This document shows positions 2,492 through 61,414 of a stretch of DNA of 64,000 nt, one piece after another. This DNA comes from Ostreococcus lucimarinus (Eukaryota). Where the stretch lies: the NCBI GenBank assembly GCA_000092065.1, contig CP000601.1, one strand, 5' to 3'. Under the pieces are notes generated by a model, which saw only the letters and a program-made list of their open reading frames with translations, did not search any database and had not been told where the DNA came from. Each line of letters begins with the position of its first letter. Within the stretch, counting starts at the first letter, position 1. A program made the translations under genes and the position numbers.

Positions 2492-4603
2492 TCACATCCG
2501 TGATGCGGCGTCGAGAGCTCGAATGGCGTCTCGACTGGCGATGGCATCTTCGATTTCGACCTCGACGTCGACGATGCGGGCGTAGAAGTCGCGGAAGACG
2601 CGGGCGTTTCGCTCGGCTTCCGCCACCGGATCTTCGTTGAGAGGGAAGGTGTCAAAGTAGAGCACGCCGGCGTAGGATATGCGACGTAGCGCGCGGACTA
2701 ATTCCATGGCGGCGTGAGGATGGACGGAGGCGAACATCAAACCGTCTTCGGCGCCGAGACGGGTGTGACCGTCGCCGAGTTGGACGCCGAACAGAGCGTT
2801 TCTCGAAGCCGCCATCGCGATGGACTGGGCTGGATTCTCGCCCGCGGCGAGCGCGTGGCCGACGTCCAGTGTCAGGCCGAAGTTGGGCTCGCCCACGGCG
2901 TCGACGAGTAGGAGTGCGGCACCTGTGGTGGGGATGAAGCTGAAACGGCTCTTTTCGTCCGTCGGCTTGAATTCGACGCTCAACTTGAGCGAGCGACACT
3001 CTTCGCTCGAGGCCACTGCTTTGTAACCGACAATCATGTCCTCCCACGCCGTGGCGTAATCCGCTTGGAGATTGTAATCGTATCCATCGTAGCGAGGCCA
3101 TATGACGACTTCGTCTGCGTCGAGTGCGGTCGCAGTCGCGCACGCCTTGCGTGCCAAAGTCGCCGCGTGTTCGCGAATCACGCCATCGGGATTCGAGAAC
3201 GCGCCCAATCGAAACGGCTCCTCGGGAAATCGCACGCATACGGCGCCAGGGCGCAACTTCGCGGCAAGAATCTTGTCTCGCAATTCCACTGCCGCGAGCT
3301 CGTTGCCGTCTGGTCCGATGAAATGTTCGGGGTAGTTGAGAAACACCGAATGCACGCCCTGAACGCGTCCCATGCGCTTTATGAGGTTGAAGACTTCCGG
3401 AACGTCCGGTTCGGCATCCGTGAATAAGTCTGCGCGAGATTTCATGCTATTCAATCTACTGGCAAATCGAAGTGCCTCGATCGCCGCCTCACTGGACGAC
3501 GAAGACGACGAGATAGGGGACGTTCGGCACGGATCTGAAACGCCAAGAAATTCATCCACGTCGCTCCGAAATGGAAGGCTTGGCATCGCACCCAACTTCG
3601 TCACCGCCAAAGCCCCCGCGGCGCTGGCGAACTTCATGGCGTCGCGCTCGTTTTTATTTTCAGCCATCGCCACCGCGAACGCGGCGCGAAACGCATCACC
3701 AGCCGCGGTGGCGTCCACTTCTTTGGCGCCGGCCGGAAGTTCCATCGATTCGACTCTCGTGACGTCTTCGCCTCTCACGAGCAACGATCCTCGACTCCCC
3801 AGCGTGCACAGAACGGCGACGCGCGACGTTCCTGCGACGATTCTCGCCGCCTTAACGACCGCTTCGTCCCCAGAAGAAACCTCCTCCACGCGCATTCCCG
3901 CCATTCCCGCGAGTTCGCTCTCGTTCGGCGCGACGTAATCCACGAGCGCCAACAACGCCTCATCCGCCGCGTGAAACGAGCCTCCCGCGTCCAGCACGAT
4001 CGTTCGCACACCGATTTCCCTCGCAACCGTCGCCGCTATCACGTTCACGCGTTCCGGCACCTCCCGCTGCAGCATCACCGTCTTCGCGCCTCGCAGCGCC
4101 TCGCGAAACTCGCTCGCCAGCGCCTCGTCGTCCGCGTTCCATCCGAGCGCGTTCGCCCCCCCCACGACCACCGCGCTCGGCGATCCATCGTCCGTCAGCA
4201 TCACGAACCCCATTCCCGTCTCGATTCCGCTCCCTCGCGCCATCGTGACGCTCCCGGACACATCCGTCTCTCGCCGCAGCGCGCGTCGCAGCGTCGTCCC
4301 CGCCTCGTCCTCCCCGAATCGTCCCACGAACGCCGCCTTCCCGCCGCGCTCGCACGTCAATCGCGACGCCGCGACCGCTTGATTCGCTCCCTTCCCTCCG
4401 CACGCGCGCTCGACGCGCGCCGCCGTCGCCGCGCGCGTTTCTCCGCGGCGCGGGACCGATGTTCCGACGCGCGCGATGACGTCGGCGTTCACGCTCCCCA
4501 CGACGGCGATCGACGCGCGGTCGGCGCGCGCGAGCGCGACGCGCGCGAGCGCGGTCAGCGCGGCGCCGAGCGCGAGGCGCCGCGCGCGACGCGCGCGACG
4601 CAT
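2492..4603 (-). CDS. Bifunctional protein: N-terminal pfkB/ribokinase-family sugar kinase fused to a C-terminal xylose-isomerase-like TIM-barrel sugar isomerase
   Basis: The N-terminal half carries pfkB motifs (VGSVNADV, GGKGANQAVAASRL, DTTAAGDAFRAAF). The C-terminal half resembles xylose or L-rhamnose isomerase (SVEFKPTDE...DVGH...VQLGDGH...EDGLMF). It is a single continuous ORF with an ATG at 4603. Confidence 0.65.
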   Translation of the reverse strand: MRRARRARRLALGAALTALARVALARADRASIAVVGSVNADVIARVGTSVPRRGETRAATAARVERACGGKGANQAVAASRLTCERGGKAAFVGRFGEDEAGTTLRRALRRETDVSGSVTMARGSGIETGMGFVMLTDDGSPSAVVVGGANALGWNADDEALASEFREALRGAKTVMLQREVPERVNVIAATVAREIGVRTIVLDAGGSFHAADEALLALVDYVAPNESELAGMAGMRVEEVSSGDEAVVKAARIVAGTSRVAVLCTLGSRGSLLVRGEDVTRVESMELPAGAKEVDATAAGDAFRAAFAVAMAENKNERDAMKFASAAGALAVTKLGAMPSLPFRSDVDEFLGVSDPCRTSPISSSSSSSEAAIEALRFASRLNSMKSRADLFTDAEPDVPEVFNLIKRMGRVQGVHSVFLNYPEHFIGPDGNELAAVELRDKILAAKLRPGAVCVRFPEEPFRLGAFSNPDGVIREHAATLARKACATATALDADEVVIWPRYDGYDYNLQADYATAWEDMIVGYKAVASSEECRSLKLSVEFKPTDEKSRFSFIPTTGAALLLVDAVGEPNFGLTLDVGHALAAGENPAQSIAMAASRNALFGVQLGDGHTRLGAEDGLMFASVHPHAAMELVRALRRISYAGVLYFDTFPLNEDPVAEAERNARVFRDFYARIVDVEVEIEDAIASRDAIRALDAASRM

Positions 4604-8654: not shown

Positions 8655-9731
8655 ATGGCGAGGCGCGCGCAGTGGCGGTCGTTCGCGCACGCGAAGTGCG
8701 ACGTCGACGACGCCCTCGCGACGACGTTCGCGCTCGCGAAATCGGTCGAGGTGGCGGTGCCGCGAGGACGGCGCGACGACGAGGACGCGATCGCGCGCGC
8801 GCTCGACGACGACGCGAATGCGATCGTCGGGACACATTTCGAGGCGGAGATGTCGATCGCGGACGCGCTGGACCCGCACTTCGTGCACGAACACGTGCGA
8901 CGGTGGACGGCGGCGAAGACGAAGACGCGCGACGCGGGCGCGACGTTTGGGCTGACGACGATCGACGCCGAGGTAGATTCGGACGATTGTTTTTGCGTGA
9001 CGCCGAAGGGACGATTCGTTGCGTCGCTCATGGCGGACGCAAAGGAAAGTTTGGGGATGCAAACGACGGAGGACGCGCGCGGGAAGGCGCTCGCGAGCGT
9101 GAATTTGACGCGAGAAGAGTTCAAGGTGGGGAATTGGTTTCACGATCGAATCGGGGCGTGTGCGCGGGCGTTTGAGCAGCGAACGGGAAAGTCAAAGGTA
9201 TTGTGCGCGTACATGGTGAGTGGTGCGCACGAGGAGGTCAAGTTTCCACGCACAGTGACGGCGGCGAGGCGCGCAGAGAGCGTCAAGACTTCGTCGCAAG
9301 TTCGCGTCAATTTGGTGAGTCAAAGTGCCGTGTTACTCGCGTCTGCGAGTCCACCGATGAGAGGCGAGGAAAAGGACATCGATGTTGATGATTTAGATCG
9401 GATTTTAGAATTTTGTGGGCGCATAAGTCTAGGAGACGCCTACATGGAGGGCGCCGAGGACGACCGAGGCGACATCGTCGAGACGCGTCGCTGGCGAGGT
9501 TTGATGTTGTATCCAGATACTCGACGCGTGATTGATATCGCGCGAAGGATCGTGAACGATGGGCTCGCACCGTGGGCCGTCGTCACTGTTTGGGCTTTCG
9601 CACACATGCCGAGCGAACTCACAGGTGAGCCGAGAAAGAAAATTGAGCGCGACTCATGCGCGCCAAAGATGGGCGCCGTGTTCACCATCGTCTTGTACCC
9701 CGACGACAAGTATTTGAAATTCGTAGCGTAG
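8655..9731 (+). CDS. Hypothetical protein with no recognisable domain
   Basis: The second half of ORF 8319..9731 is non-repetitive, while the first 112 codons are Arg-rich. The internal ATG at 8655 (MARRAQWRSFAHAKCD) is the likely start. Confidence 0.3.
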   Translation: MARRAQWRSFAHAKCDVDDALATTFALAKSVEVAVPRGRRDDEDAIARALDDDANAIVGTHFEAEMSIADALDPHFVHEHVRRWTAAKTKTRDAGATFGLTTIDAEVDSDDCFCVTPKGRFVASLMADAKESLGMQTTEDARGKALASVNLTREEFKVGNWFHDRIGACARAFEQRTGKSKVLCAYMVSGAHEEVKFPRTVTAARRAESVKTSSQVRVNLVSQSAVLLASASPPMRGEEKDIDVDDLDRILEFCGRISLGDAYMEGAEDDRGDIVETRRWRGLMLYPDTRRVIDIARRIVNDGLAPWAVVTVWAFAHMPSELTGEPRKKIERDSCAPKMGAVFTIVLYPDDKYLKFVA

Positions 9732-48576: not shown

Positions 48577-49171
48577 GGCGTCGAAAACCGCGTTCGTCGT
48601 CGTCTGCGCGCGCGCGATCGCCGTCGGTCAGTGTCACGATTCCATCGAGTCGCACTCGCGCCTTTCTCGCGCGTCGCTCGCGGTTTTAGACGTCGCCGTC
48701 CCCCCCCATCGCGCGAAAACCGCGCCTCGGACGTCCCGTCCCGTCCCGATCGACGCGCGTCGCGCGCGCGTCGCGTCGCGTCGGTCGCCGCGCACCTTCC
48801 CCCGTCCGCGCCCCTTCGCCGGCCGTCCTCGCGCGCCGGGTCCCGGTCGCCGTCCGCTCGCGTCGCGCGTCGACGTCGACGTCGACGCCCCGCTCGCGCG
48901 CGCGCGCGTCGCGAGCGCCCTATCCAGCGCCATGGCGTCGACGGCGCGCGCGTCGCGTTCGCGCGTCGACGACGCGCGCGCGTCGACGACGCTCGCGACT
49001 CGTCGACGACGACGTCGACGACGACGACGCGCGTCGCTGTGCCGGGCGTCGTCGCGTCGTCGGATCGTCGTCTCGTCGTCGTCCCGCGGCGTCCCGCGCG
49101 TCCGCCTCGAGCGCGAGCGCGAGCGGTCGCGAGCGGTCGCGATCGGACGATGCGACCGATGGTGCGATTGA

Positions 49172-51037
49172 ATGGATACACACGGACCACACCGATCCCA
49201 TCGACGAGTCTCGACTCGAGAACGAGTCCCTCGACGCCCGACGCGCCCCGACCGACGTCACGCGATCCGATCCGCGCGCGGCGTCGTCGCGTCGGCGTCG
49301 TCGCGTCGGCTCGTCACAGCGCGCGTCCGGGACAGCGAGCGCTCGAACGCCCGAACGCGCGAAGCGCCCGAGACGGATCCGAACGCCACGAATCCGCGCC
49401 GAGCGATCGAGCCCGCCATGCGCACCGTCGCGCGCGCGTTCGCGACGACGACGACGTCGAGCGCGAGGTGTGATTATCGCCGTCGAGCGACGACGACGCG
49501 CGCGACGACGAGCGCGGTGCGCGCGGACGCGCGGCGCGCGCGATCGGGGAGGTATGCGATCGTTCCGCGATCGATCGAGGGCGAAGGGAACGCCGCGGTC
49601 GTCGAAAGAAGCGTCGAGGGCGAGGAGGGGGAGAAGATGATGTCCCTGGAGGCGAGACGCGAGGCGCTGAGGTTGCCGCGCCCGGACGTCGCGGCGCCGG
49701 GGATGGAGGATCCGTGGAACGATGAGAAGTGGCAAAAGGTGAAGTGGACGGTGTTTCGAGACGTGGCGTACGACCTCGGACCGTTCTTTGAGAAGCATCC
49801 GGGCGGGAACTGGTTGTTGAACCTCGCCATCGGTCGCGACTGCACGGCGCTCATGGAATCCTATCACTTGCGACCAGAGGTGGCGACGGCGCGCTTCAGG
49901 ATGTTACCCAAGCTCGAGGGGTTCCCGGTCGACGCCGTGGCGAAGTCACCGAGACCGAACGATTCGCCGCTGTACAACAACATCCGCAATCGCGTTCGCG
50001 AGGAACTTTTCCCGGAAGAAGGGAAGAACAAACACAGAATGGGTGGCGACCACGCGACGATAACGATTTTGTCTTTCGCCGCGTTTGCGTACGGTGTGTA
50101 CGCCACCATCCCGGGCTTTCTCTCGGGTTGCCTCCTTGGCTTAGCTGGTGCGTGGATCGGGCTCACGATTCAGCATTGCGCCAATCACGGGGCGATGTCA
50201 CCGTCGCCCGCCGTCAACGGCGTCCTCGGTTTGACGAACGATCTCATCGGCGGCTCGTCTTTGATGTGGCGATACCACCACCAGGTGAGCCACCACATTC
50301 ACTGCAACGACAATGCTATGGATCAAGACGTGTACACCGCCATGCCTCTCTTGCGTTTCGACGCTCGTCGTCCCAAGGCGTGGTACCACCGCTTCCAGCA
50401 CTGGTACATGTTCTTGGCCTTTCCGTTGTTGCAGGTGGCGTTCCAAGTCGGCGACATCGTCGGTTTGTTCACTCGCGATACCGAAGGCGCAAAGCTCCAC
50501 GGGGCGACCACTTGGGAACTTGCCACCGTAGTTATCGGCAAGTTTGTGCACTTCGGTTTGTTGGCTGCACCTTTGATGAGCCACGCGGCTTCCGCCGTCG
50601 TCGCCGGCATCGTCGGTTTCATGGCGTGCCAAGGAGTCGTCCTCGCGTGTACGTTCGCGGTGAGTCACAACGTGCCCGAGGCCAAACTCCCTGAAGATAC
50701 CGGTGGAGAGGCGTGGGAAAGAGATTGGGGCGTGCAGCAGTTGGTGACTAGCGCTGACTGGGGTGGAAAGATTGGAAACTTTTTCACCGGCGGTCTGAAC
50801 TTGCAAGTCGAGCATCACCTGTTCCCGGCGATTTGCTTTGTGCACTACCCCGCGATCGCGAAAATTGTCGCGGAAGAAGCGGCGAAGATGGGCATTCCTT
50901 ACTCGTCATACAGAACACTTCCCGGCATTTTCGTCGCGTTCTGGAAATTCGTCAGAGACATGGGCACGGCGGAGCAAATCGACGACGTTTTACTTCCGAA
51001 GTTCGCGAACCCGCAACTTTCGCCAGCCATCAATTAG
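49172..51037 (+). CDS. Front-end fatty-acid desaturase with N-terminal cytochrome b5 domain (delta4-desaturase-like) and an Arg/Thr-rich presequence
   Basis: The cyt b5 heme motif reads EKHPGGNWLLNLAIGRDCTALMESYH. Three His boxes are present (HCANHG, HHQVSHHIHCN, QVEHHLFP). The first ~150 aa look like a transit peptide. Confidence 0.8.
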   Translation: MDTHGPHRSHRRVSTRERVPRRPTRPDRRHAIRSARGVVASASSRRLVTARVRDSERSNARTREAPETDPNATNPRRAIEPAMRTVARAFATTTTSSARCDYRRRATTTRATTSAVRADARRARSGRYAIVPRSIEGEGNAAVVERSVEGEEGEKMMSLEARREALRLPRPDVAAPGMEDPWNDEKWQKVKWTVFRDVAYDLGPFFEKHPGGNWLLNLAIGRDCTALMESYHLRPEVATARFRMLPKLEGFPVDAVAKSPRPNDSPLYNNIRNRVREELFPEEGKNKHRMGGDHATITILSFAAFAYGVYATIPGFLSGCLLGLAGAWIGLTIQHCANHGAMSPSPAVNGVLGLTNDLIGGSSLMWRYHHQVSHHIHCNDNAMDQDVYTAMPLLRFDARRPKAWYHRFQHWYMFLAFPLLQVAFQVGDIVGLFTRDTEGAKLHGATTWELATVVIGKFVHFGLLAAPLMSHAASAVVAGIVGFMACQGVVLACTFAVSHNVPEAKLPEDTGGEAWERDWGVQQLVTSADWGGKIGNFFTGGLNLQVEHHLFPAICFVHYPAIAKIVAEEAAKMGIPYSSYRTLPGIFVAFWKFVRDMGTAEQIDDVLLPKFANPQLSPAIN

Positions 51038-51156: not shown

Positions 51157-52191
51157 CTACACACGAATTCTCAAGTTGAGCAACTCTCGCTCGGCGCTCG
51201 TTCGATTAAACGTCACACTTTGTCCGATACTCACCGGCTCCGGGGGTGCACCACCCTCTTCGTATGCCTCGTAACTTCTTAAAGTCCCATCAGGACCGGC
51301 ATACGCGCCGTCGACGTAAGAATGGCAGTTGTGCAAACCGGCGTCTGAAAGCAGCTGCTTCGCCCACGCCGCGGAACTACTGCTTCGGCTATGCAACAAG
51401 ATGAGATTATCCGACGTCGGCTTGTGAAATCGGAACATCCGCACCCACTCTTCATCGTTCATATGCACTGCTTTGGGCAGATGATCCACCGGGACGTGCG
51501 TTGACCCCTCGAGTGTTCCGTAAAGCGCGCGCTCGTCAAACCTTCGAATGTCCAAAATCACTAGTCCCAGCGCATTGCCGTCGTCTCTCACCGTTTCCAG
51601 GAGAAGTAACACCGCGTCGAAGCTCAGAGCTCGATCTTTCCCTGATGAAAACACAGCGGGTTCGTCGAAGTGTGCTAGAGGTACCGCCGCGGCGAGTCCG
51701 CCGTCCACGATGGAGCACCGCGTGAATCCCAGGCTCGTCGCGAGCGCCGCGGCGTGCGACGAGCTATGCCCGTGCGTGCTCACAAAAATCATCGTCGTCC
51801 TTAAACTCGGCACGGGAATGTTTGGAAATCTCTTCTTCCACAGTGTGTTACGATTGCGCAACAAGTTCGCCAACTCTTCCGGTAAGATGTGCGTCACGGC
51901 GAGTCTGTCGCTCAGCTTCGTCACCGCCGTCGCCCCCCCGTCCTCGCTCTTCGGTCTGACGTCTAATAGCAAGTATTTCACCGGTTTCGTTTGAACCAAC
52001 ATCCAAAACGCTTTCGCACTCAGCACCCCGTACGTCTGTTTGTTCAATTTCACCGTCGGTTGCGAGCTCGACGTCGTTCGCTGTCTCGCTCGATCTCTGT
52101 GCTTGGCGCTTCGCAAGACGCGCACGGACCAGGCGATGAGAGACAGACACACGGCGGTGGTTAACGAACCGCCGACGTTGGTGACGTGCAT
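51157..52191 (-). CDS. Membrane-anchored protein with two rhodanese-like domains lacking the catalytic Cys
   Basis: An N-terminal TM (LTTAVCLSLIAWSV) is followed by rhodanese-like modules (LLDVRPKSE...THGHSSSHAA and ILDIRRFDERALYGTLEGSTHVP...LLHSRSSSSAAWAKQL). The active-site Cys is replaced by Ser/His in both. The ATG lies 15 nt inside the GTG track start. Confidence 0.6.
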   Translation of the reverse strand: MHVTNVGGSLTTAVCLSLIAWSVRVLRSAKHRDRARQRTTSSSQPTVKLNKQTYGVLSAKAFWMLVQTKPVKYLLLDVRPKSEDGGATAVTKLSDRLAVTHILPEELANLLRNRNTLWKKRFPNIPVPSLRTTMIFVSTHGHSSSHAAALATSLGFTRCSIVDGGLAAAVPLAHFDEPAVFSSGKDRALSFDAVLLLLETVRDDGNALGLVILDIRRFDERALYGTLEGSTHVPVDHLPKAVHMNDEEWVRMFRFHKPTSDNLILLHSRSSSSAAWAKQLLSDAGLHNCHSYVDGAYAGPDGTLRSYEAYEEGGAPPEPVSIGQSVTFNRTSAERELLNLRIRV

Positions 52192-53021
52192 GATATTCGT
52201 CCGCACGCGCGCCGCGCGCGTCCGTCTGCGGGCGCACCGCCGATCACGCGCGCGGTCGACGTGGACGCGCGTCGAGTCGATTTCGAACGAACGAACGCCA
52301 AAACGAACGCGCGTCGAGCGATTTCGTGGGCGTCTCGAGGGCGCGCAACCCTACGAAATCGTCGTCGAAAAATCACGCACTCAAAGACAATTTAGAACTA
52401 TCTGCAAACACGGTACGCGCGCGATAAACGCCGCGTCGGCCCCCGCGCGCCGCGCGCGCGAACGAAGCGACGTTCGTGGCGACCGTTGAAGCGCCGAACC
52501 AGAGCGCGAGACCGCGCGCGCGTCACAGCGCGCGGCGAAATTTGCGAAAGCGTCCACACGAACATGCTCTCGGTTTCGACGTCGTCGCGATCGCTCGCGA
52601 GCGCACCGACGGCGCGCCGAGGATGGCGTGGGCGTCGCGGCGGGAGCAGGTTAGAAACGGTTCGACGGGCGCAAATCGGCGTCGATCTCGTCGACGCGGC
52701 GAGAAACGGGTTGGAGACGTTCGTTCAAAGGGTACGTTATCGACAAGCGCGAGATTCGGACCTAAAATCGATCGGTGCGCGCCGACAGAGCGATGTCAAG
52801 AGTGGTTTTGTTGCCTCTCGCCGCACGCTCTCGGTGAAGCAAACGAGCGCAAACGCGACGAAGATTGAGGCTGACCGATTTATTTTCATTCGTAGGCATC
52901 GAAGGCGTTACCAATACTGCTTGGACACGACGATACTGTCGAAATCGAGCGGGAAAACGAGTCGTTAGACGCCGCGAAGACAAACTCGAGAACGCGAGCC
53001 GCAGAGCTCACCCAGGCGCGC

Positions 53022-54396
53022 GTGGAGAGTTTGCTTAAGCCCGACGCGGGAAGAGATGATATATTCCACGCCGCGGGTCAAGGGTTAGCTGGTGTCGGAG
53101 GCGACGTCGTAGCGATTGGTTGGTGGGACTCACGCGGGGTAGAAGGCACGTCCCCGCAACTTGAATTGCAGGCGCTCAACGACGGCGCCAGGGCACAACT
53201 CATAGGGGTGGTGCTCTTGGCGCTTAAAGAAGGGCTCGAGAACATAGAAGAGAGCAACGGAAGCTTGCGTGAACTCATTCAAACAGTGGCTAGGGTCTCC
53301 GCGAATGATTGGATGAATTCGATGGCGCTTGACATCGGCGCCAAGGAGCGGTGCGCTCGGGTGGTTCGCGTGGCCGGAGACGTGGCCGATGAAAAAATTT
53401 GGCAGAACGGTACGTATGATCTCGCTTTCGTCTTCGACCGAGCTGATCGCGTTTTTCACAGGAGAAATACTTGAAGGAAGTAAGATGGCTTTGTATGCCG
53501 GAGTGATGATGTATTTGGCCAAGGTACGTCTAACTTTCGCTGAGCTTCACAAATATTTATTTAATTATTCTGAATTATTTCAATCATCGCAGAACTCCAA
53601 TCGAACGGACAATATTTCCGAAAGCGTTCAAGTCGTTGAGAAATCGACGAAAATTAACACTCAAGACGTCGAACCGGTGCTGGAATTCTTCAATTCTCCT
53701 ATGGCTTCGGTGTGCGTTTCGGTTTTGCAGGACGTGGTATTAAATATTGCCGACTCCGTGGCGTGTGCTTACGTGACGTGTGCGCGTGAAAGCGGGCTAC
53801 AAGCGCCTGTAAATGGTGGAGTCGCACGTACGGAGGACACAGGAGCGGTCGTGCGCATTCCACCGTTCAGAGACGCGTTGAGCGTTCGCTTGAAGAGCAC
53901 ACGTTCGTTGGAAAAATTTCGAAATGAAACATCATTGCGCACGTGGCTTGCACGCAATTATTACGACGTGGTCGCGATGTACGAAGATTGGCATAAATTG
54001 TGGGGCATGAATGCAAACGGCGAGGTACGTATCTCCGCGCGACGGCGCGTTTGAATTAATTTTTTAATTTGTCGCTGAAATTAATTATTTTTCACACAGC
54101 TCGTGACGAGGAAAATTCACGTTTGTCGCCAGCCAGAGCTCGCAAAGGTGAAGGGATTTCGTTTAGCTGTTTCTATGATAATAGAACTCGCTGATGTGAG
54201 CCTTCCCTTGTTCAGAAGCGCACTGAACAACTGCAGCCGGGTGGCTTCTTGGTTACTGGTGACATTAATTGGTGCGTTTGAAATTAATTATTTTGTGCAT
54301 CGACTTACTCTCTCTAACGCAGGCCGTTCGCTTGGATTGGTGTATCGTGGAATCAAAGAAAGCATGGACCCTCAAAACAGAGTGAAATTCACGTAG
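53022..54396 (+). CDS. Multi-exon gene (at least 4-5 exons) encoding a hypothetical protein, in a local low-GC patch
   Basis: Candidate introns with GTACGT/GTGCGT donors and YAG acceptors lie at about 53409..53463, 53526..53590, 54028..54107 and 54272..54321. Each joins the flanking ORFs in frame. The exons translate to ...IWQN|GEILEGSKMALYAGVMMYLAK|NSNRTDNISES...WGMNANGE|LVTRKIHVCRQPELAKVKGF...LLVTLIG|AGRSLGLVYRGIKESMDPQNRVKFT. The track start is a GTG, so the 5' end is uncertain. No family recognised. Confidence 0.45.
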
Positions 54397-54514
54397 TAGA
54401 CGACAGGCAGCACGGGGCGATCGCTTCTACGCTGGGGAAAAAATTAATAATAAATGACTCCCGTCATATGTCACTACAGCACTGTAAAATCTAATGAGGA
54501 GAAAACGTCTCATG

Positions 54515-56161
54515 CTAATCGTCTTCCTCGCTATCCTCTTCCTCGTCGTCTTCCTCGTCCTCGTCTTCGTCGTTATCGTCGGTTTCGTAATCTACTTCAT
54601 CGTCCTCCTCGTCTTCCTCCTCGTCTGCGCTGGCTGACTTTTTCGGCGCAGGTTCGGAGTCTTCATCCTCACCTGGGTTCACGAAGCCGTCTTCCAACAC
54701 CCAGCCGTGCTGTAGGAGTAACTCATACACACGAATAGCCTTGAGTGGGTCTACTTTGAACATATTCCGAACGTGATTTCTGTTGAGCGGCTTTTCGGAC
54801 TTGAGACCCTCTCGCATCAACTCCACCTTCATCGAGAGATACTGCACAGGCAATAAGCGACAGCTCCTGCACAACTCCTTTTCGTCGTCGTTCAAAAGGT
54901 CTACGCCTGGAAGATCGGCGAGATCAAGTGACAAGTACATTCGACGGCGAGGACCTAAGCTCGACGTACGAGGCGTCGGGATCACGGATACCGTCTTGTC
55001 TTCGTCGTTCATGCGAGTCAACTGCTCATTGATTTGTGTGGCATCTCGCACGATGAACTTGTTCGCTCTGGCTATGTTCTTGCTAGTTGGATGCTCGATC
55101 GCGTGTAGACGAGCGAACTCCGTCTCACGACGACGCTTCTCCAAATCGTAATCCTCGCCCTCTGCGATGGTATGAATACCATTGCGTCTGTACTCTTTCA
55201 GTTCGGTGATGCGGGTTCGGATTCGGTGCTCCGCGGCGAGACCCTCGAGCAAGACGTCGTACTCGGTACTCGTGAGAAAGCGTGCAAATATACGCATGGT
55301 GCCGTGTAAGTCGCGCTCGTATTGTGAACGCTTCTTTTCCACGTTTTGTTGCTTTTTCACGTTCAGCAGATTGCGTTCGAGAATGAATTGTTTTCTTCTC
55401 GCTCGTTCTTGAAGCCGGCTGTTGTAGATTTCAATCATTCGCAGCTTCATCTGGACGTCTTCTTCGGTGTCGTTTTCGCGAAATTCCATCTCCGCCAGGG
55501 GAAGTTCGGCATCCATGTCGTATTCGGGATCGAACTCATTGCGCTTGATGTTGTAACCTGTGAGTTCCTGCACGTTGCCCTCCGTCTTCACTGCGTTCGG
55601 GTTAGCAAGCGATTCGAGAAGCTTCTCCTCCTCCTCCACATCCTTATTTTCGTTCGCCTTTTGCTCCGCCTCCGCTTTGAGCTCGTCTGATGTCATACGC
55701 GCGACGCCTTTTCCTAAAATCTTCGACATATCCGGTAACGGCGCGCAAGGAGACTTGACGTAGACTTCAAAATAGTGCGCGTGACACTGCGCGCGCGTCT
55801 TCGTCCCGACGTGTTCGCTCACCTCGGTCCAGTTCCCCAACCCGAACATCTCCACTGCCTCCAGCAATAACAACTCTTCGTCAGCCCCCCAATCTCGCGT
55901 GAACAGCGGAAACGACATGTTGTCGATGACGTGATACTGATGATACGCCTTGTGCGGGTGCGGCTCCACGCCGACCGCGAAGCACTCCGTGCACAGATCC
56001 ACGTTTGCGCACTCCGCGCACCGTACGCGCACCACGTTCGAGATGTCCTTTTGGCAATAGTTACAGTTAAACAGTGCGCACGACTCCCCGTTCCCACTCA
56101 GCTTCGTCATCGCGTTTTCCGTCGCCACCCGTCGCCGTTTCGGCACGAGCGCGCTCGCCAT
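54515..56161 (-). CDS. ADA2: Transcriptional adaptor ADA2 (ZZ zinc finger + SANT + SWIRM)
   Basis: The ZZ finger reads CNYCQKDISNVVRVRCAECANVDLCTECF. The SANT domain reads WGADEELLLLEAVEMFGLGNWTEVSEHVGTKTRAQCHAHY. A C-terminal SWIRM domain and a poly-acidic tail follow. Confidence 0.85.
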   Translation of the reverse strand: MASALVPKRRRVATENAMTKLSGNGESCALFNCNYCQKDISNVVRVRCAECANVDLCTECFAVGVEPHPHKAYHQYHVIDNMSFPLFTRDWGADEELLLLEAVEMFGLGNWTEVSEHVGTKTRAQCHAHYFEVYVKSPCAPLPDMSKILGKGVARMTSDELKAEAEQKANENKDVEEEEKLLESLANPNAVKTEGNVQELTGYNIKRNEFDPEYDMDAELPLAEMEFRENDTEEDVQMKLRMIEIYNSRLQERARRKQFILERNLLNVKKQQNVEKKRSQYERDLHGTMRIFARFLTSTEYDVLLEGLAAEHRIRTRITELKEYRRNGIHTIAEGEDYDLEKRRRETEFARLHAIEHPTSKNIARANKFIVRDATQINEQLTRMNDEDKTVSVIPTPRTSSLGPRRRMYLSLDLADLPGVDLLNDDEKELCRSCRLLPVQYLSMKVELMREGLKSEKPLNRNHVRNMFKVDPLKAIRVYELLLQHGWVLEDGFVNPGEDEDSEPAPKKSASADEEEDEEDDEVDYETDDNDEDEDEEDDEEEDSEEDD

Positions 56162-57901: not shown

Positions 57902-58678
57902 CTATCGTCTTCGTTTCACGCCCGTGCTCGGACCGTCCTCGTCCATGTCCTCGTCCTCGTCGACGCGCTCGGCGACGTCCGGCTCGGCGGCTTTGAGTTG
58001 TTTCTTCGTCTCCTCTATCGCGGCGTTGAGCTCGTCCTCGCGCGCCAGTGATTCCGCTTTTTCACTCGACACGTACGCAATTTGCTCATTCAAACTCGCC
58101 AACATCGTTTCCGTTATCGCGTGCCACCGCGAGACGTCCGCGATGACGCCGTCGAGCGCGCTCGCTCGCGCGTCTCTCGCCTTCGCGCGTCGAACCCGTA
58201 AAACTTTATTTTTCGGATCGAGCCTTCCCCACACGATTTCTCCCAGGCACTCGTCGACGATGAACTTTTCCATCGCGCGTTCGCTCGTGAACTCCAGCTC
58301 TCGCATCAATCGTACGTACGCGATCGTCCCTCCCTCCGCGCACAGCGCGCACGTCGACAGTCGCTTCAGTTTCGCCTCCTCGCGCGTCGTCAGCGTCGGC
58401 AACTTTTCGTTTGCCGCTCGCGCGCGATATTCGCGCAGCGTGCCGTGCGCGAATATTTCCACCATCGCGCGCACCTCCGCCGCGCACTCGAACCCCTCCG
58501 TGCGCTCCATGGCGTGCAGTATCTTCGTCACGCGCATCGCGTCGCGCGCCTCGAGCGCCTCGCCGAGCGCGTCGCGATCGAGCGTCTTCGTCGTCGCGAT
58601 CGACGTCGCGCACCGCGTCACCGCGCCGTCGTCGGGCGTCATCGACGCCATCGCATCGTCCTCGTCGTCGGCGCGCAT
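57902..58678 (-). CDS. CSN7: COP9 signalosome subunit 7 (CSN7, PCI domain)
   Basis: FAHGTLREYRA...LPTLTTREEAKLKRLSTCALCAEGGTIAYVRLMRELEFTSERAMEKFIVDECLGEIVWGRLDPKNKVLRV follows the CSN7 PCI pattern. A coiled-coil acidic C-terminus follows. Confidence 0.6.
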   Translation of the reverse strand: MRADDEDDAMASMTPDDGAVTRCATSIATTKTLDRDALGEALEARDAMRVTKILHAMERTEGFECAAEVRAMVEIFAHGTLREYRARAANEKLPTLTTREEAKLKRLSTCALCAEGGTIAYVRLMRELEFTSERAMEKFIVDECLGEIVWGRLDPKNKVLRVRRAKARDARASALDGVIADVSRWHAITETMLASLNEQIAYVSSEKAESLAREDELNAAIEETKKQLKAAEPDVAERVDEDEDMDEDGPSTGVKRRR

Positions 58679-58810
58679 CGCGAGCGAACGACGCGCGCGA
58701 GTGTCGATCGATCGGCCCCGAATCCCAATCGCGCCATCTGTTCATCCATCCATCCACGCATCCATTCTTCTCTCCGCGGTCACATCGCGACGTCGGCGCG
58801 GTCGAGGGCG

Positions 58811-61414
58811 ATGCGAGGCGGACGACGCGACGCGATGCGCGCGCTCGCGCGACGATGCGCGGGCGCGACGACGGGCGCGACGACGGGCGCGACGACGACG
58901 ACGACGACGACGACGACGGCGCGGCGGTTACCGCGCGCGCGCGAGCGACGGGTCGAGCGGGACGCGGGACGCCGCGCGCTGGCGACGCGGGCGGCGCGGG
59001 ACGTCGAACTGACGTGCGCCGCGTTCGCGGTGTGGGGGGCGAACACCGCGGTCGGGAAGACGCTGGTGTCGGGAGGACTGGCGCGCGCGGCGCGGAGCGC
59101 GGAGGCGGGGACGCTCTTCGTGAAACCCGTGCAGACGGGATTCCCAGAAGATTCAGACGCCGCGTTCGTGGCGCGCGTGAGCGGTGGCGTGGAGAGCATG
59201 GGCGAACACGCGGCGGTGGCGGCGGGAGAAACGGCGAGGAAAGGATTAGAGGGCGATCGAGGGGCGTGGGCGCACACCGAGTTTGCGTGGCGACGCCCCG
59301 CGGGGCCGCACGTGAGCGCGGCGGAGGAGGGGAGAGGCGTTTTAGACGATGACATCGTGCGAGCGACGTCGAGATATTTGAGAGAATTCGCGGAAAAAAT
59401 GCGAGCGAACGAATCGGGGCAGCAGCGAGCGTTGGCGCTCGTCGAAACCGCGGGAGGGGTGGCGAGTCCGGGGCCGTCGGGAACGCTGCAATGCGAGCTT
59501 TTGCGCGGGCTACGATTGCCAGCCATACTCGTGGGTGACGGGCGTTTGGGCGGGATATCTGCCACCACGGCCGCGTACGAATCACTGCACGCGAGAGGGT
59601 ACGACATCGTCGCCATCGTCATGGCGGACGATGATGGTTTGGCCAATCACAAAGCCATGGCAAAGATTTTGCCGAGCGAAACCCGCGTCTGGGCGCTTCC
59701 GCCTCTGCCCCCAGAAGGACAAGCGGACGCTTGGCTCGAAGACTCAAAGCACACGTTCGACGATTTACTGAAATACATCACAAAATGGCACGACGATCGC
59801 ATCAAAACTCTGCAAAGTCTTCCAGACGAGGCTCTGACGAAGATTTGGTGGCCGTTTACGCAGCACGCGATGGTGGAGCGCGACGCCGTCACGGTGATCG
59901 ATGGGAGATATGGTGAAGATTTCGCAATCTACGCCCAAAACACGCACTCATCGAAAGATGGCTCCATAGTACTTCGCTTTGATGGTTCAGCGAGTTGGTG
60001 GACGCAAGGTTTGAGTCCAGAATTGCAGCAAGAGTTGGTTCGCACCGCGACGCATGCGGCGGGACGATTCGGGCACGCGATGTTTCCAGAAAACGTGCAC
60101 CAGCCCGCCGTGGACGCGACGACGGCATTATTAGAAGGACCTGGGAAAGGTTGGGCAGCTAGAGCATTTTATTCCGACAACGGATCGACTGCGACAGAGG
60201 TTGGGTTGAAAATGGCTTTTCGCAAGTTTTACGTCGACGCAGGCTTTGTGTCTAAAGACGGCAATCAGAGAGCGAAAGATCTCGTCAACAAAGGAGCCGA
60301 TGACTTACCTCCGCTGCGAATAATAGCATTGGATGGTTCGTATCACGGTGATACTCTCGGTGCGATGGATATGCAATCACCGAGCGTTTTTACGGGTCCA
60401 ATGCAAACGCCCTGGTACCAACCTCGCGGACTGTTCCTTCAGCCTCCGAGTTTAGCGATCAGAGAAGGACGTTGGAACGTGGCGTTGCCGCGTGATGGAT
60501 TATTGAACGACGGCGATCGACTCTTCCGCGAAGGCAAAGATGTGGATGAGAACACCAGTTGGACTAGCAAGGAGGCGGCTTTCAACATCGCTGCGCGTCT
60601 CGACAGCCCGCTCGCAAAAGAATACAAAATTGCGATCGACAAAGTCTTAGAACGCGCCGCGAAAGACGCCAAGGATAATAACATGGGTCACGTCGGGGCT
60701 TTAATCATGGAACCCGTGCTTCACGGTGCAGGTGGGATGGTTTTGATTGATCCGTTGTTTCAAAACATTCTCATGAAGTCGTGCCGCGAGCGAAAGATTC
60801 CAGTCGTCTTGGACGAGGTATTTGCTGGCATTTGGCGATTAGGCACGGAAGGTGCGTGGGAAATCATAGGCGAAAAACCCGATATTTCGTGCTACGCAAA
60901 ACTTCTCACTGGTGGGCTCATTCCCATGTCAGCCACGCTCGCGACGGCGGATGTCTTCGACGCTTTTTACGGCCCTGGAAAAGCCCAGGGCTTGTTACAC
61001 GGGCACTCGTACACGGCATACCCCATGGGATGCGCCGTGGCGGCGAAAGCGCTTTCTATGTACAAAGACCCCGCGAAAAATCGCAACGTGATCGTCTCAA
61101 AGTCTTCGAGTACGGGCGAGCCTACGTCGGTGCTTCGCGAGCTCTGGGACGAGGACGCGTTGAAGAAAATTTCCACTTTGAGCAACGTTCGCCGAGTCAT
61201 CGGTCAGGGTTGTGTCCTCGCCGTCGAGCTCGAGGTCGAAGGTGAAGGTGGTTATAGCTCCAACGCCGCTCGAGACGTCGTCATGCGTCTTCTTCCCCAC
61301 TCCATCCAAGCGCGTCCTCTGGGTAACGTCGTCTACCTCATGTGCGCGCCGACGACGTCCAAAGACGCGTGCGACGTCCTCTTGAGCGCGCTCGCGACAG
61401 AGCTCGCGGCGTGA
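58811..61414 (+). CDS. BIO3-BIO1: Bifunctional dethiobiotin synthetase / 7,8-diaminopelargonate aminotransferase (BIO3-BIO1 fusion) with mitochondrial-type presequence
   Basis: The N-terminal BioD domain has the P-loop VWGANTAVGKT and VKPVQTG. The C-terminal class III aminotransferase has DEVFAGIWRLGTEGAWE and the PLP Lys in CYAKLLTGG. The track ORF starts at 58445, antisense to CSN7. The internal ATG at 58811 (MRGGRRDAMRALARR) was confirmed. Confidence 0.85.
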   Translation: MRGGRRDAMRALARRCAGATTGATTGATTTTTTTTTARRLPRARERRVERDAGRRALATRAARDVELTCAAFAVWGANTAVGKTLVSGGLARAARSAEAGTLFVKPVQTGFPEDSDAAFVARVSGGVESMGEHAAVAAGETARKGLEGDRGAWAHTEFAWRRPAGPHVSAAEEGRGVLDDDIVRATSRYLREFAEKMRANESGQQRALALVETAGGVASPGPSGTLQCELLRGLRLPAILVGDGRLGGISATTAAYESLHARGYDIVAIVMADDDGLANHKAMAKILPSETRVWALPPLPPEGQADAWLEDSKHTFDDLLKYITKWHDDRIKTLQSLPDEALTKIWWPFTQHAMVERDAVTVIDGRYGEDFAIYAQNTHSSKDGSIVLRFDGSASWWTQGLSPELQQELVRTATHAAGRFGHAMFPENVHQPAVDATTALLEGPGKGWAARAFYSDNGSTATEVGLKMAFRKFYVDAGFVSKDGNQRAKDLVNKGADDLPPLRIIALDGSYHGDTLGAMDMQSPSVFTGPMQTPWYQPRGLFLQPPSLAIREGRWNVALPRDGLLNDGDRLFREGKDVDENTSWTSKEAAFNIAARLDSPLAKEYKIAIDKVLERAAKDAKDNNMGHVGALIMEPVLHGAGGMVLIDPLFQNILMKSCRERKIPVVLDEVFAGIWRLGTEGAWEIIGEKPDISCYAKLLTGGLIPMSATLATADVFDAFYGPGKAQGLLHGHSYTAYPMGCAVAAKALSMYKDPAKNRNVIVSKSSSTGEPTSVLRELWDEDALKKISTLSNVRRVIGQGCVLAVELEVEGEGGYSSNAARDVVMRLLPHSIQARPLGNVVYLMCAPTTSKDACDVLLSALATELAA
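58861..58917. repeat. Three copies of a 12-mer (GGGCGCGACGAC) followed by a (GAC)n run, inside the BIO3-BIO1 presequence coding region
   Basis: Read directly from the sequence. It encodes the GATTGATTGATTTTTTTTT stretch. Confidence 0.7.

What the first reader, a model, noticed from the sequence alone, without database searches (positions are those of the whole stretch)
52990..54450. Intron-dense, AT-richer gene sitting in an otherwise 65-70% GC, intron-poor region
From about 53000 to 54450 the composition drops to roughly 50% GC. Intron-like segments reach ~30% GC (e.g. gtacgtctaactttcgctgagcttcacaaatatttatttaattattctgaattatttcaatcatcgcag). The gene has at least four short introns within 1.4 kb, whereas neighbouring genes have zero or one. 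The encoded protein has no domain I recognise. Outlier low-GC, intron-rich regions are known in Mamiellales genomes and have been linked to sex or mating-related chromosome regions. A small islet like this could be a fragment of such a region, a recently transferred gene, or a gene under different mutational constraint.
Basis: seen in the sequence. Interest (0 to 1): 0.6.

Follow-up and report, generated by a model that had tools for sequence, protein, structure and literature searches.

The report
Intron-rich AT-shifted Ycf55-like gene, Ostreococcus
This is a real, transcribed and spliced nuclear gene of the tiny green alga Ostreococcus lucimarinus, encoding a Ycf55-like (DUF3685) protein; it carries five introns, four of them short and AT-rich, in a genome where most genes have none, and this layout is conserved across the genus, so it is neither a transferred gene nor a piece of the mating-type chromosome.

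Summary
Region 52990-54450 has 49.9% GC, among the lowest 2% of equal-sized windows. The background, however, is 59.5% GC, not 65-70%.

The gene is 52564-54396 on the + strand. It has six exons, encodes 473 aa, and has five introns of 164, 52, 69, 75 and 51 nt. An intron-less transcript contig matches the window in six blocks that break exactly at these introns, so splicing is confirmed.

The protein has a C-terminal DUF3685 domain, the domain of Ycf55 and cyanobacterial CheY-like regulators. The window is O. lucimarinus.

About half of the GC dip comes from a general 5'-to-3' GC decline seen in every gene of the window. The rest comes from AT-rich introns and mildly AT-shifted 3' exons.

All seven Ostreococcus lineages examined have the same five introns at the same positions. 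Micromonas-like orthologues, in the same gene order, are intronless and GC-rich. More distant green-lineage orthologues have introns elsewhere. Introns 4-5, and probably 2-5, therefore look like Ostreococcus-lineage gains.

Introns 2-5 match the published weak-signal "chromosome-2 type", yet the locus is colinear and not on an outlier chromosome. Introns 3-5 carry a gene-specific, genus-conserved (AATT)n motif whose role is unknown. Overall interest is modest.

The parts
52248..52563 (+). 5' UTR (minimum extent)
   Evidence: The transcript-like contig L001 starts aligning at 52248; the called CDS starts at the ATG at 52564.
52564..52731 (+). Exon 1 (56 codons). It has a Ser/Thr/Arg/Ala-rich, acid-free N-terminus that looks like a plastid transit peptide (inferred). 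GC 0.66.
52732..52895 (+). Intron 1: 164 nt, GC 0.53, GTACGT...GGCTGACC...TAG. This is a near-standard Ostreococcus intron; the orthologous intron has a GACTGAC branch motif in lineages L018, L022, L028 and L037.
   Evidence: Absent from contig L001; orthologues.
52896..53409 (+). Exon 2 (514 nt, GC 0.58)
53410..53461 (+). Intron 2: 52 nt, GC 0.50, GTACGT...GCTGATC...CAG, phase 1.
   Evidence: Absent from L001; same position in 7 Ostreococcus lineages.
53462..53523 (+). Exon 3 (62 nt, GC 0.42)
53524..53592 (+). It shares a 29-nt exact block, TATTTATTTAATTATTCTGAATTATTTCA, with lineage L005.
53593..54024 (+). Exon 4 (432 nt, GC 0.50); includes the start of the DUF3685 domain.
54025..54099 (+). 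Intron 4: 75 nt, GC 0.37, with two AATTAATT copies (54054, 54079).
54100..54271 (+). Exon 5 (172 nt, GC 0.48). It ends in ACATTAATTG, a string kept in 6 of 7 lineages despite saturated synonymous sites.
54272..54322 (+). Intron 5: 51 nt, GC 0.37, GTGCGT, phase 1. It is in frame and stop-free in this species only. It splits the invariant LIG|RSLGL motif.
54323..54396 (+). Exon 6 with the TAG stop codon
54076..54091 (+). Motif TGAAATTAATTATTTT in intron 4. An exact second copy lies at 54279-54294 (intron 5), and 75% copies at 53556-53571 (intron 3) and 54051-54066 (intron 4).
   Evidence: AATTAATT occurs 4 times in 64 kb, 3 of them in these introns, against 0.33 expected.
54397..54514 (.). 118-nt AT-rich spacer between the convergent stop codons. 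The transcripts of the two genes are joined in one contig.
54515..56161 (-). Convergent neighbour: ADA2-like transcriptional adaptor (ZZ, Myb, SWIRM domains), intronless, CDS GC 0.536.
51157..52206 (-). Divergent neighbour: rhodanese-domain protein, a single ORF.

Best explanation
The feature is one ordinary, vertically inherited nuclear gene of O. lucimarinus. It encodes a 473-aa Ycf55-like protein: a DUF3685 domain at the C-terminus, no receiver domain, and a probable plastid transit peptide. The gene lies on a standard, colinear chromosome.

The low GC has three additive causes. (1) Every gene in this window shows a steep 5'-to-3' GC decline, and the 3' half of this gene abuts the 3' end of a convergent neighbour. 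(2) Three introns have 30-37% GC. (3) The 3' exons are about 7 points lower in GC than equivalent parts of neighbouring genes.

The high intron density arises because the gene carries one near-standard 5' intron plus four short introns of the weak-signal, AT-rich class. That class otherwise typifies the intron-dense half of chromosome 2 (BOC1). These four introns sit at positions not used by Micromonas-like, other chlorophyte or streptophyte orthologues. They were therefore most likely gained in the Ostreococcus lineage and then kept in every species.

Inferred, not shown: because these introns lack the strong GTGCGTG/GACTGACG signals of normal Ostreococcus introns, the spliceosome recognises them through AU/U-rich intronic elements, as in plant introns. 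That would explain the selective maintenance of their AT-richness and of the (AATT)n / GAATTAATTATTT blocks.
For: Identity. The protein is 100% identical to O. lucimarinus 'predicted protein' P0004 and to Logan protein P0001.

Splicing. Contig L001 aligns in six blocks whose gaps are the five introns. The 473-aa MMETSP transcript P0002 matches genomic lineage L018 with the same interruptions.

Domain. Pfam DUF3685 scores 68.9 bits against a cut-off of 25. The link between DUF3685 and Ycf55 is from PMC4226036.

Composition. GC3 falls from 0.79 to 0.65 between the first and last 150 codons across 28 genes; the target has the lowest GC3, 0.59. GC against distance from a start codon gives Spearman -0.57. 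Exons 3-6 have GC 0.486, compared with 0.557 +/- 0.029 for equivalent coding sequence in 20 other genes.

Conservation. The same five intron positions, with similar lengths (164-168, 52-55, 57-88, 75-89 and 51-53 nt), occur in 7 Ostreococcus lineages. Four-fold synonymous sites are only 38-46% identical between these lineages.

Absence elsewhere. L003 and L040-L066 are uninterrupted, and their GC is at or above the locus mean. Synteny is conserved.

Other intron positions. Closterium, Adiantum, L078 and the plant-like last exons have introns near KFRN^E and elsewhere. They are contiguous across the sites of Ostreococcus introns 4 and 5.

Intron class. None of the five introns contains ACTGAC, and four of five begin GTACGT. 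In the literature, 87% of non-chromosome-2 introns have ACTGAC and the GTGCGTG consensus, while chromosome-2 introns have GTRNGT and weak branch points (PMC2483917).

Motif. There are 22 AATTAATT in 9.1 kb of this gene across 6 lineages, against 1 in 60.9 kb of flanking sequence.
Against: - The library type of SRR28369099 was not verified; cDNA origin is inferred from the precise loss of GT..AG segments.
- No Bathycoccus orthologue was recovered, so the timing of the intron gains is bounded only loosely.
- The sites of introns 2 and 3 lie in a region that aligns poorly with distant outgroups. 'Gain' is well supported only for introns 4 and 5, and only relative to the intronless Micromonas-like genes.
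- The splicing-enhancer role of the AT-rich motif is untested. The motif sits at different places in different introns: near the 3' splice site in intron 4, about 9 nt after the 5' splice site in intron 5, and mid-intron in intron 3. That fits a specific protein-binding element at least as well.
- No actual BOC1 intron was compared here; the class assignment rests on published descriptors.
- The chromosome assignment is indirect, based on record length and colinearity.
Confidence: 0.75

Rival explanations
1. The gene is a relic of the low-GC BOC1 / mating-type region. It acquired its introns and composition there and was later translocated to a standard chromosome.
For: The intron class matches the published chromosome-2 type. 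Gene traffic between the mating-type locus and the autosomes has been reported (PMC8557840).
Against: The rhodanese-DUF3685-ADA2 neighbourhood is the same in Ostreococcus and in a Micromonas-like contig where the gene is intronless and GC-rich. The gene would have had to leave and return to the same slot. Only this single gene is affected. Flanking genes are compositionally ordinary.
Confidence: 0.06
2. The four short introns are ancient and merely retained in Ostreococcus. Micromonas and the other lineages lost them.
For: Mamiellales genomes are streamlined and have lost many introns. The positions of introns 2 and 3 cannot be scored in distant outgroups because the region aligns poorly.
Against: Closterium, Adiantum, the plant-like loci, L078, L079 and L076 are all uninterrupted at the sites of introns 4 and 5. 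They instead share other positions, such as KFRN^E, which Ostreococcus lacks. Retention would require several independent losses.
Confidence: 0.12
3. Introns 3-5 derive from insertions of one AT-rich mobile or duplicated element, in an introner-like or intron-transposition event. That would explain their shared GAATTAATTATTT core.
For: An exact 16-nt repeat is shared by introns 4 and 5, and a 22-nt repeat at 77% identity spans GCGTTTGAA(A)TTAATT. The motif is essentially confined to this gene. The introns are lineage-specific.
Against: No other copies exist in the 64-kb window or in about 60 kb of orthologous flanks. The shared part is a short low-complexity (AATT)n run that can arise by slippage. 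The motif lies at a different place in each intron. Common descent alone cannot explain its persistence while synonymous sites saturated.
Confidence: 0.12
4. The (AATT)n blocks are a gene-specific cis-regulatory element, either a protein-binding site on DNA or on pre-mRNA. They control expression or regulated intron retention of this plastid-related gene, rather than acting as generic splicing enhancers.
For: The motif is about 150-fold enriched in this gene relative to its flanks in six lineages. Its position is conserved within each intron. Synonymous sites in the exon-5 end ACATTAATTG are conserved.
Against: There is no expression or intron-retention data. No conserved RNA structure was found (z-scores about 0). 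There is no Rfam match. AT-rich low-complexity sequence is what weak plant-type introns are expected to contain.
Confidence: 0.25
5. The gene was recently acquired by horizontal transfer, for example from a virus or another alga.
For: Only its deviant composition.
Against: Orthologues with conserved synteny occur across Mamiellales, and homologues occur in streptophytes. The introns are spliceosomal and conserved.
Confidence: 0.01

Closest known systems
Short AT-rich 'chromosome-2 / BOC1-type' introns of Mamiellales (Derelle 2006 and Palenik 2007 as cited in PMC3491373 and PMC2367439; signal analysis in PMC2483917)
   Same: They are short (51-75 nt here, against the published 40-65 bp) and AT-rich relative to their exons. 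The 5' splice sites are of the GTRNGT type. There is no ACTGAC/GACTGACG branch motif. Several occur in one gene.
   Different: The gene is on a colinear standard chromosome, not in the contiguous low-GC block. The introns still have recognisable CTRAY-like branch candidates and YAG ends. Three of them share a conserved (AATT)n motif, whereas BOC1 introns are reported to have no conserved motifs.
Standard Ostreococcus introns (GTGCGTG ... GACTGACG ... CGCAG; usually one, near the 5' end of the gene)
   Same: Intron 1 is the first intron, 164 nt long with 53% GC. It has a CTGAC branch about 20 nt from the 3' end, and a full GACTGAC in four sister lineages.
   Different: Introns 2-5 lack these signals, are much shorter and AT-richer, and lie in the middle and 3' part of the gene.
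Ycf55 / cyanobacterial CheY-like response regulators with a C-terminal DUF3685 domain (PF12452)
   Same: The C-terminal DUF3685 domain is present, including the invariant STRxLEKFRNE and LIGRSLGL(V/I)YRGI motifs.
   Different: No receiver domain is detectable. The gene is nuclear, has spliceosomal introns and has a transit-peptide-like N-terminus. Function is unknown for every member of the family.
Introner elements of Micromonas pusilla
   Same: Both are lineage-specific intron gains in a Mamiellales genome, with sequence shared between introns.
   Different: Introners are multi-copy families of longer elements spread over many genes. Here the shared sequence is a 13-22-nt AT-rich core found only in this gene in the sequence examined.

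Membership tests
BOC1 low-GC outlier region (big outlier chromosome) | One contiguous low-GC block of hundreds of kb | tested here: not met
   The dip spans about 1-2.5 kb. GC returns to 0.6-0.8 within 2 kb on both sides.
BOC1 low-GC outlier region (big outlier chromosome) | Loss of gene colinearity between species and genera | tested here: not met
   The same gene order is found in O. tauri, three further Ostreococcus contigs and a Micromonas-like contig.
BOC1 low-GC outlier region (big outlier chromosome) | Located on chromosome 2 of O. lucimarinus | tested here: not met
   This test is indirect. The public record holding the gene is 321,799 bp. Chromosome 2 carries 489 predicted genes (PMC2367439) and chromosome 18 is 149 kb (PMC3491373). 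The exact chromosome number was not determined.
Chromosome-2-type (weak-signal) introns | Short (40-65 bp) and AT-rich relative to the exons | tested here: met
   Introns 2-5 are 52, 69, 75 and 51 nt long with GC 0.50, 0.30, 0.37 and 0.37; the exons have GC 0.42-0.66. Two of the four slightly exceed 65 nt.
Chromosome-2-type (weak-signal) introns | No ACTGAC branch motif; GTRNGT 5' site rather than GTGCGTG | tested here: met
   None of the five introns contains ACTGAC. The 5' sites are GTACGT four times and GTGCGTT once. In sister lineages they vary as GTGAGT, GTAAGT, GTATGT and similar.
Chromosome-2-type (weak-signal) introns | No conserved internal sequence motifs (as reported for BOC1 introns) | tested here: not met
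   The (AATT)n / GAATTAATTATTT motif is conserved in introns 3-5 of all lineages. Real BOC1 introns were not examined here.
Standard Ostreococcus introns | ACTGAC or GACTGACG branch motif 20-35 nt from the 3' splice site, and a GTGCGTG 5' site | tested here: not met
   Not met for introns 2-5. Intron 1 has GGCTGACC in O. lucimarinus and GACTGAC in L018, L022, L028 and L037, so intron 1 alone is near-standard.
Ycf55 / DUF3685 family | PF12452 domain above the gathering threshold | tested here: met
   The score is 68.9 bits against a cut-off of 25, with E=6.3e-19 over aa 345-461.
Ycf55 / DUF3685 family | N-terminal CheY-like receiver domain (cyanobacterial form) | tested here: not met
   There is no other Pfam hit at E<=1. 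None of 10 longer family members showed a receiver domain at E<=0.001.
Ycf55 / DUF3685 family | Plastid localisation or plastid function | not testable with these tools
   Only the transit-peptide-like composition of residues 1-40 suggests this; it is an inference.
Introner elements / transposon-derived introns | Many near-identical copies in unrelated genes | tested here: not met
   The motif is absent from the rest of the 64-kb window and from 60.9 kb of orthologous flanks. Whole genomes were not searched.
Horizontally transferred gene | No orthologues in close relatives, or a foreign phylogenetic affinity | tested here: not met
   Orthologues in conserved synteny occur across Mamiellales, and homologues occur in streptophytes.

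The most novel reading that the evidence does not exclude
A standard-chromosome gene underwent an Ostreococcus-specific burst of intron gain from a common AT-rich source. The resulting introns carry a gene-specific (AATT)n element that has been held under selection throughout the genus. This element would regulate splicing or expression of a plastid-signalling (Ycf55-like) protein. If so, the locus offers a tractable, single-gene model of how the enigmatic BOC1-type introns arise and are recognised by a spliceosome otherwise tuned to very strong signals.
Probability: 0.15. Interest if true: 0.6.

Novelty: new member of a known kind. Interest (0 to 1): 0.33.

Why it matters
Ostreococcus has two intron populations. 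One has strong signals and is sparse across most of the genome. The other has weak signals and is dense in half of chromosome 2. How a single spliceosome handles both is an open question raised by Irimia & Roy (2008).

This gene sits on an ordinary, colinear chromosome yet carries four weak-signal AT-rich introns. Those introns are conserved in position across the genus and absent from Micromonas. It therefore separates intron type from chromosomal context, which shows that the weak class does not depend on the outlier-chromosome environment. O. tauri can be transformed, so the gene offers a compact test bed for asking what makes such introns recognisable.

There is also a practical point. The public gene models for this gene are wrong in both reference species: truncated in one and read through an intron in the other. 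The finding does not reveal a new kind of element or a mating-type fragment.

Tried and rejected
- Exact-sequence look-up of the neighbouring ORF and of P0004 found nothing on record.
- A loose GT..branch..AG scan for introns was too noisy to count introns. It was replaced by the strict ACTGAC-based scan and by AT-island mapping.
- The AlphaFold model built from a 20-sequence alignment was poor (mean pLDDT 45, pTM 0.37), so no fold search was run.
- A profile search of PDB sequences gave no hit. NCBIfam gave no hit.
- I tested whether the palindromic AAUUAAUU blocks form conserved hairpins that present splice sites or pair between introns. MFE z-scores were about 0 in seven lineages and -1.85 for the intron 4-exon 5-intron 5 segment, with no inter-intron pairing. 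This idea was rejected.
- An Rfam scan of 52200-54600 found no match, so there is no known intron-hosted RNA.
- The AT-rich loci L080-L085 (28-32% GC) were first suspected to be plastid ycf55. Their sequence is instead a short terminal exon nearly identical to the fern's last exon, so they are plant-like nuclear DNA.
- L076 was first treated as an outgroup. It is in fact a Micromonas-like orthologue with three long introns.
- No Bathycoccus orthologue was identified among the hits.
- PNAS genome papers: Derelle 2006 (PMC1544224) was requested and is not held; Palenik 2007 was not requested.
Full report
**1. What the window is**

The spliced product of the gene is 100% identical to a Logan-derived 473-aa protein (P0001). 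Over its 275 aa it is also 100% identical to 'predicted protein [Ostreococcus lucimarinus CCE9901]' (P0004). The O. tauri orthologue is 68% identical. Metagenome contigs L006-L017 encode 98-100% identical exons.

**2. The composition claim**

Region 52990-54450 has GC 0.499. The whole window has 0.595. Among all 1460-nt windows the mean is 0.597 with sd 0.056, and only 1.9% are as low as the target. In 200-nt steps the minima are 0.385-0.41 at 53400-53700 and 0.43-0.46 from 53900 to 54600. The dip is real.

The stated background of 65-70% is not. GC in this window follows gene position:
- Spikes of 70-80% GC sit at divergent 5' gene ends, for example 48700-49600 and 58500-59100.
- Dips to 40-45% GC sit at convergent 3' ends, at about 9700, 37000, 42900 and 51000.
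- Across 28 long-ORF genes, GC3 falls from 0.79 in the first 150 codons to 0.65 in the last 150.
- The GC of 100-nt bins falls from 0.69 within 200 nt of a start codon to about 0.54 beyond 1 kb (Spearman -0.57, p=3e-53).

At comparable distances the target gene lies 4-10 points below this trend. Its exons 3-6 alone have GC 0.486, compared with 0.557 +/- 0.029 (minimum 0.505) for the equivalent coding stretch of 20 other genes. Its whole-CDS GC3 of 0.59 is the lowest in the window, where the mean is 0.707 and the sd 0.057. Roughly half of the apparent islet is thus a positional effect shared by all genes. The rest comes from three very AT-rich introns, an AT-rich 118-nt spacer to the convergent neighbour, and mildly AT-shifted exons.

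**3. The gene model and the splicing claim**

Reading the three frames gives six exons:
- 52564-52731
- 52896-53409
- 53462-53523
- 53593-54024
- 54100-54271
- 54323-54396

The five introns are 164, 52, 69, 75 and 51 nt long, with GC of 0.53, 0.50, 0.30, 0.37 and 0.37.

Logan contig L001 (SRR28369099, 3653 nt) carries the CDS as one uninterrupted 1422-nt ORF. It aligns to the window at 99.8-100% identity in six blocks, and the gaps between blocks coincide with the five introns. I could not check the library type. Even so, the precise removal of five GT..AG segments is explained only by spliced RNA.

The same contig runs without interruption through the convergent ADA2-like gene (54515-56161, minus strand), so that gene is intronless. 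A second species gives independent support. MMETSP transcript P0002 (473 aa, complete) matches genomic contigs L018, L020 and L026 with the same interruptions.

The public gene models are faulty:
- The O. lucimarinus model is truncated to 275 aa.
- The O. tauri RCC1115 model (581 aa) keeps intron 5 and then reads into a Ser-rich tail. That tail is the antisense of ADA2's acidic tail.

**4. How unusual the intron density is**

In the 64 kb there are about 29 genes, and almost all are single long ORFs. A strict scan for the strong Ostreococcus signals finds about five credible standard introns. Each is in a different gene, 109-264 nt long, with GC 0.52-0.71.

The only intragenic 50-mers with 30% GC or less are introns 3-5 of the target. 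Every other AT-rich patch is at a gene end or between genes.

Published EST data put these numbers in context. Only 16% of O. lucimarinus transcripts have introns. The 44 clusters on chromosome 2 account for 181 of 457 introns, which leaves about 1.25 introns per intron-containing gene elsewhere (PMC2367439). A five-intron gene off chromosome 2 is therefore a genuine outlier.

**5. What kind of introns they are**

Irimia & Roy (PMC2483917) describe two classes among confirmed introns:
- Outside chromosome 2, 87% contain ACTGAC and 66.5% contain GACTGACG. The 5' consensus is GTGCGTG, the 3' end is CGCAG, and the branch point lies 20-35 nt from the AG.
- On chromosome 2, branch signals are weak and 5' sites are GTRNGT.

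BOC1 introns are further described as 40-65 bp and AT-rich (PMC3491373).

In the target gene, none of the five introns contains ACTGAC, and four begin GTACGT. Intron 1 is near-standard: 164 nt, 53% GC, with GGCTGACC about 20 nt from the 3' end. Its orthologues in four sister lineages carry GACTGAC. Introns 2-5 fit the chromosome-2 class in size, composition and signals.

**6. It is not a fragment of the outlier region and not a transfer**

O. tauri has the gene between the same neighbours: Cyt-b5 fatty-acid desaturase, rhodanese, DUF3685, ADA2. So do a second O. lucimarinus-like contig and a third Ostreococcus lineage. A 1.4-Mb Micromonas-like contig of about 68% GC (L003) has the same order. 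BOC1, in contrast, is defined by loss of colinearity (PMC3491373).

The O. lucimarinus record holding the gene is 321,799 bp. That fits neither chromosome 2 (489 genes) nor chromosome 18 (149 kb).

Homologues occur throughout Mamiellales and in streptophytes such as Closterium, Spirogloea-like entries and Adiantum. Horizontal transfer is excluded.

**7. Comparative anatomy**

I obtained seven distinct Ostreococcus lineages:
- the window itself
- L024, about 95% identical
- O. tauri
- L005
- L018/L026, which is the MMETSP P0002 lineage
- L022
- L028/L037

All have five introns at identical codon positions. Their lengths are similar, and GC is similarly low in introns 3-5:
- intron 1: 164-168 nt (measured in three lineages)
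- intron 2: 52-55 nt (measured in three lineages)
- intron 3: 57-88 nt
- intron 4: 75-89 nt
- intron 5: 51-53 nt

The O. tauri locus shows the same GC trough, 0.41-0.48 over the 3' half of the gene. Between these lineages, four-fold synonymous sites are only 38-46% identical, which is near saturation.

The Micromonas-like orthologues differ sharply. L003 and L040-L066, which fall into several GC classes from 0.56 to 0.71, are single uninterrupted matches. Their GC equals or exceeds that of their surroundings.

More distant orthologues have introns at other places:
- Closterium and Adiantum break near KFRN^EV. Adiantum also breaks before RYYFSL.
- L078 breaks at FRNQV^ and at RRAQ^EVERLKG.
- The plant-like loci L080-L085 begin their last exon before RRYYFSL.

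All of these are continuous across the sites of Ostreococcus intron 4 (NGE^LV) and intron 5 (LIG^RSLGL). Ostreococcus in turn lacks the KFRN^E intron. The most parsimonious reading is that the old introns were lost in Mamiellales and that introns 4 and 5 were newly gained in the Ostreococcus lineage. Introns 2 and 3 were probably gained too, although they lie in poorly alignable sequence.

No Bathycoccus orthologue was recovered, so the gain may predate the Ostreococcus-Bathycoccus split.

**8. A conserved, gene-specific intronic motif**

Introns 4 and 5 share an exact 16-mer, TGAAATTAATTATTTT. Weaker copies lie in introns 3 and 4.

AATTAATT occurs four times in the 64-kb window, three of them in these introns, against 0.33 expected. 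In the 22-kb O. tauri locus all three occurrences are in the orthologous introns. Across six lineages there are 22 occurrences in 9.1 kb of this gene and one in 60.9 kb of flanks. That one lies 11 nt past the gene part I scanned, which ends about 60 nt after the RSLGLVY codons.

The motif keeps its place within each intron: about 10-14 nt upstream of the 3' splice site in intron 4, about 9 nt downstream of the 5' splice site in intron 5, and mid-intron in intron 3. Intron 3 shares a 29-nt exact block between O. lucimarinus and L005. The exon-5 end, ACATTAATTG, is kept in six of seven lineages.

Whole-intron identities of 60-79% exceed composition-matched shuffles by z of about 1-4.4, and are highest for introns 3-5. 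Some purifying selection on these AT-rich blocks is therefore likely.

I tested whether the palindromic blocks form conserved hairpins or inter-intron duplexes, and they do not. Rfam finds nothing.

My preferred reading is an inference. These are AU/U-rich intronic elements that let short, weak-signal introns be recognised in a GC-rich transcriptome, as is known for plant introns. TTAAT also fits the loose yUnAy branch consensus in intron 4. A specific regulatory protein-binding site is a live alternative.

**9. The protein**

Pfam assigns DUF3685 (PF12452) to aa 345-461. This is the C-terminal domain of plastid-encoded Ycf55 and of cyanobacterial CheY-like response regulators (PMC4226036).

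Alignment shows invariant STRxLEKFRNE and LIGRSLGL(V/I)YRGI motifs from Mamiellales to ferns. No receiver domain is detectable here or in ten longer relatives. The family is small, with 491 clusters at 50% identity among 1.84 billion.

The structure model was too poor to use, and no solved relative exists. The N-terminus is Ser/Thr/Arg/Ala-rich and acid-free for 30 residues, consistent with a plastid transit peptide; this is an inference. The function of the family is unknown. The best guess is a plastid-located regulatory or signalling component that descends from a cyanobacterial response regulator and has lost its receiver domain.

**10. Verdict**

The feature is a vertically inherited, expressed Ycf55-like gene that carries chromosome-2-type introns on a standard chromosome. 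Those introns were probably gained in the Ostreococcus lineage and have been conserved since, along with a gene-specific (AATT)n motif.

It is a new, well-documented member of a known class of Mamiellales introns, not a new kind of element. Its value is as a compact test case for how weak AT-rich introns are recognised, and as a correction to two public gene models.

Noticed in passing
whole window (e.g. GC spikes 48700-49600 and 58500-59100; dips near 9700, 37000, 42900, 51000): Every one of 28 long-ORF genes shows a 5'-to-3' GC3 decline, from a mean of 0.79 to 0.65. GC of 100-nt bins falls from 0.69 next to start codons to about 0.54 beyond 1 kb. Divergent promoters are 70-80% GC and convergent 3' ends are 40-45% GC. 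This could reflect promoter-centred GC-biased gene conversion or a coding or regulatory constraint; it was not investigated further.
   Followed up: partly
window 52564-54396; O. tauri L002 10003-11860: The public gene models of this gene are wrong. The O. lucimarinus 'predicted protein' is truncated to 275 aa. The O. tauri RCC1115 model (581 aa) retains intron 5 and reads into a Ser-rich tail that is the antisense of the neighbouring ADA2 acidic tail. Transcript assemblies support 473 aa.
   Followed up: yes
L076 228-1524 and L077 1431-2727: A Micromonas-like orthologue carries three long introns (about 250-340 nt) in the DUF3685 region, after FRNEV, QVK and NFNK. These positions differ from those in Ostreococcus, while most Micromonas-like contigs are intronless. 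They may be Micromonas introner elements.
   Followed up: no
window 54397-54514: The stop codons of the convergent DUF3685 and ADA2-like genes are only 118 nt apart, and one transcript contig spans both genes. Their 3' UTRs therefore probably overlap as antisense.
   Followed up: no
whole window, both strands: The standard branch-point hexamer ACTGAC is under-represented: 13 sites against 23.6 +/- 5 in dinucleotide shuffles. About six of the 13 sit in credible GACTGACG intron contexts. This is consistent with avoidance of cryptic branch sites.
   Followed up: partly
L080-L085 (match near 4001-4160): Metagenome contigs of 28-32% GC carry only a short terminal exon (…RRYYFSLFLELSDITMPI…LIGRSLGLIYTGIRQSLKWK) that is almost identical to the fern's last exon. 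This is plant-like nuclear DNA present in environmental assemblies, not plastid ycf55.
   Followed up: partly
window 54272-54322: In O. lucimarinus only, intron 5 is 51 nt, in frame and stop-free. If retained it would insert 17 aa inside the invariant LIG|RSLGL motif. In the other lineages the intron is 52-53 nt, so retention would shift the frame.
   Followed up: no
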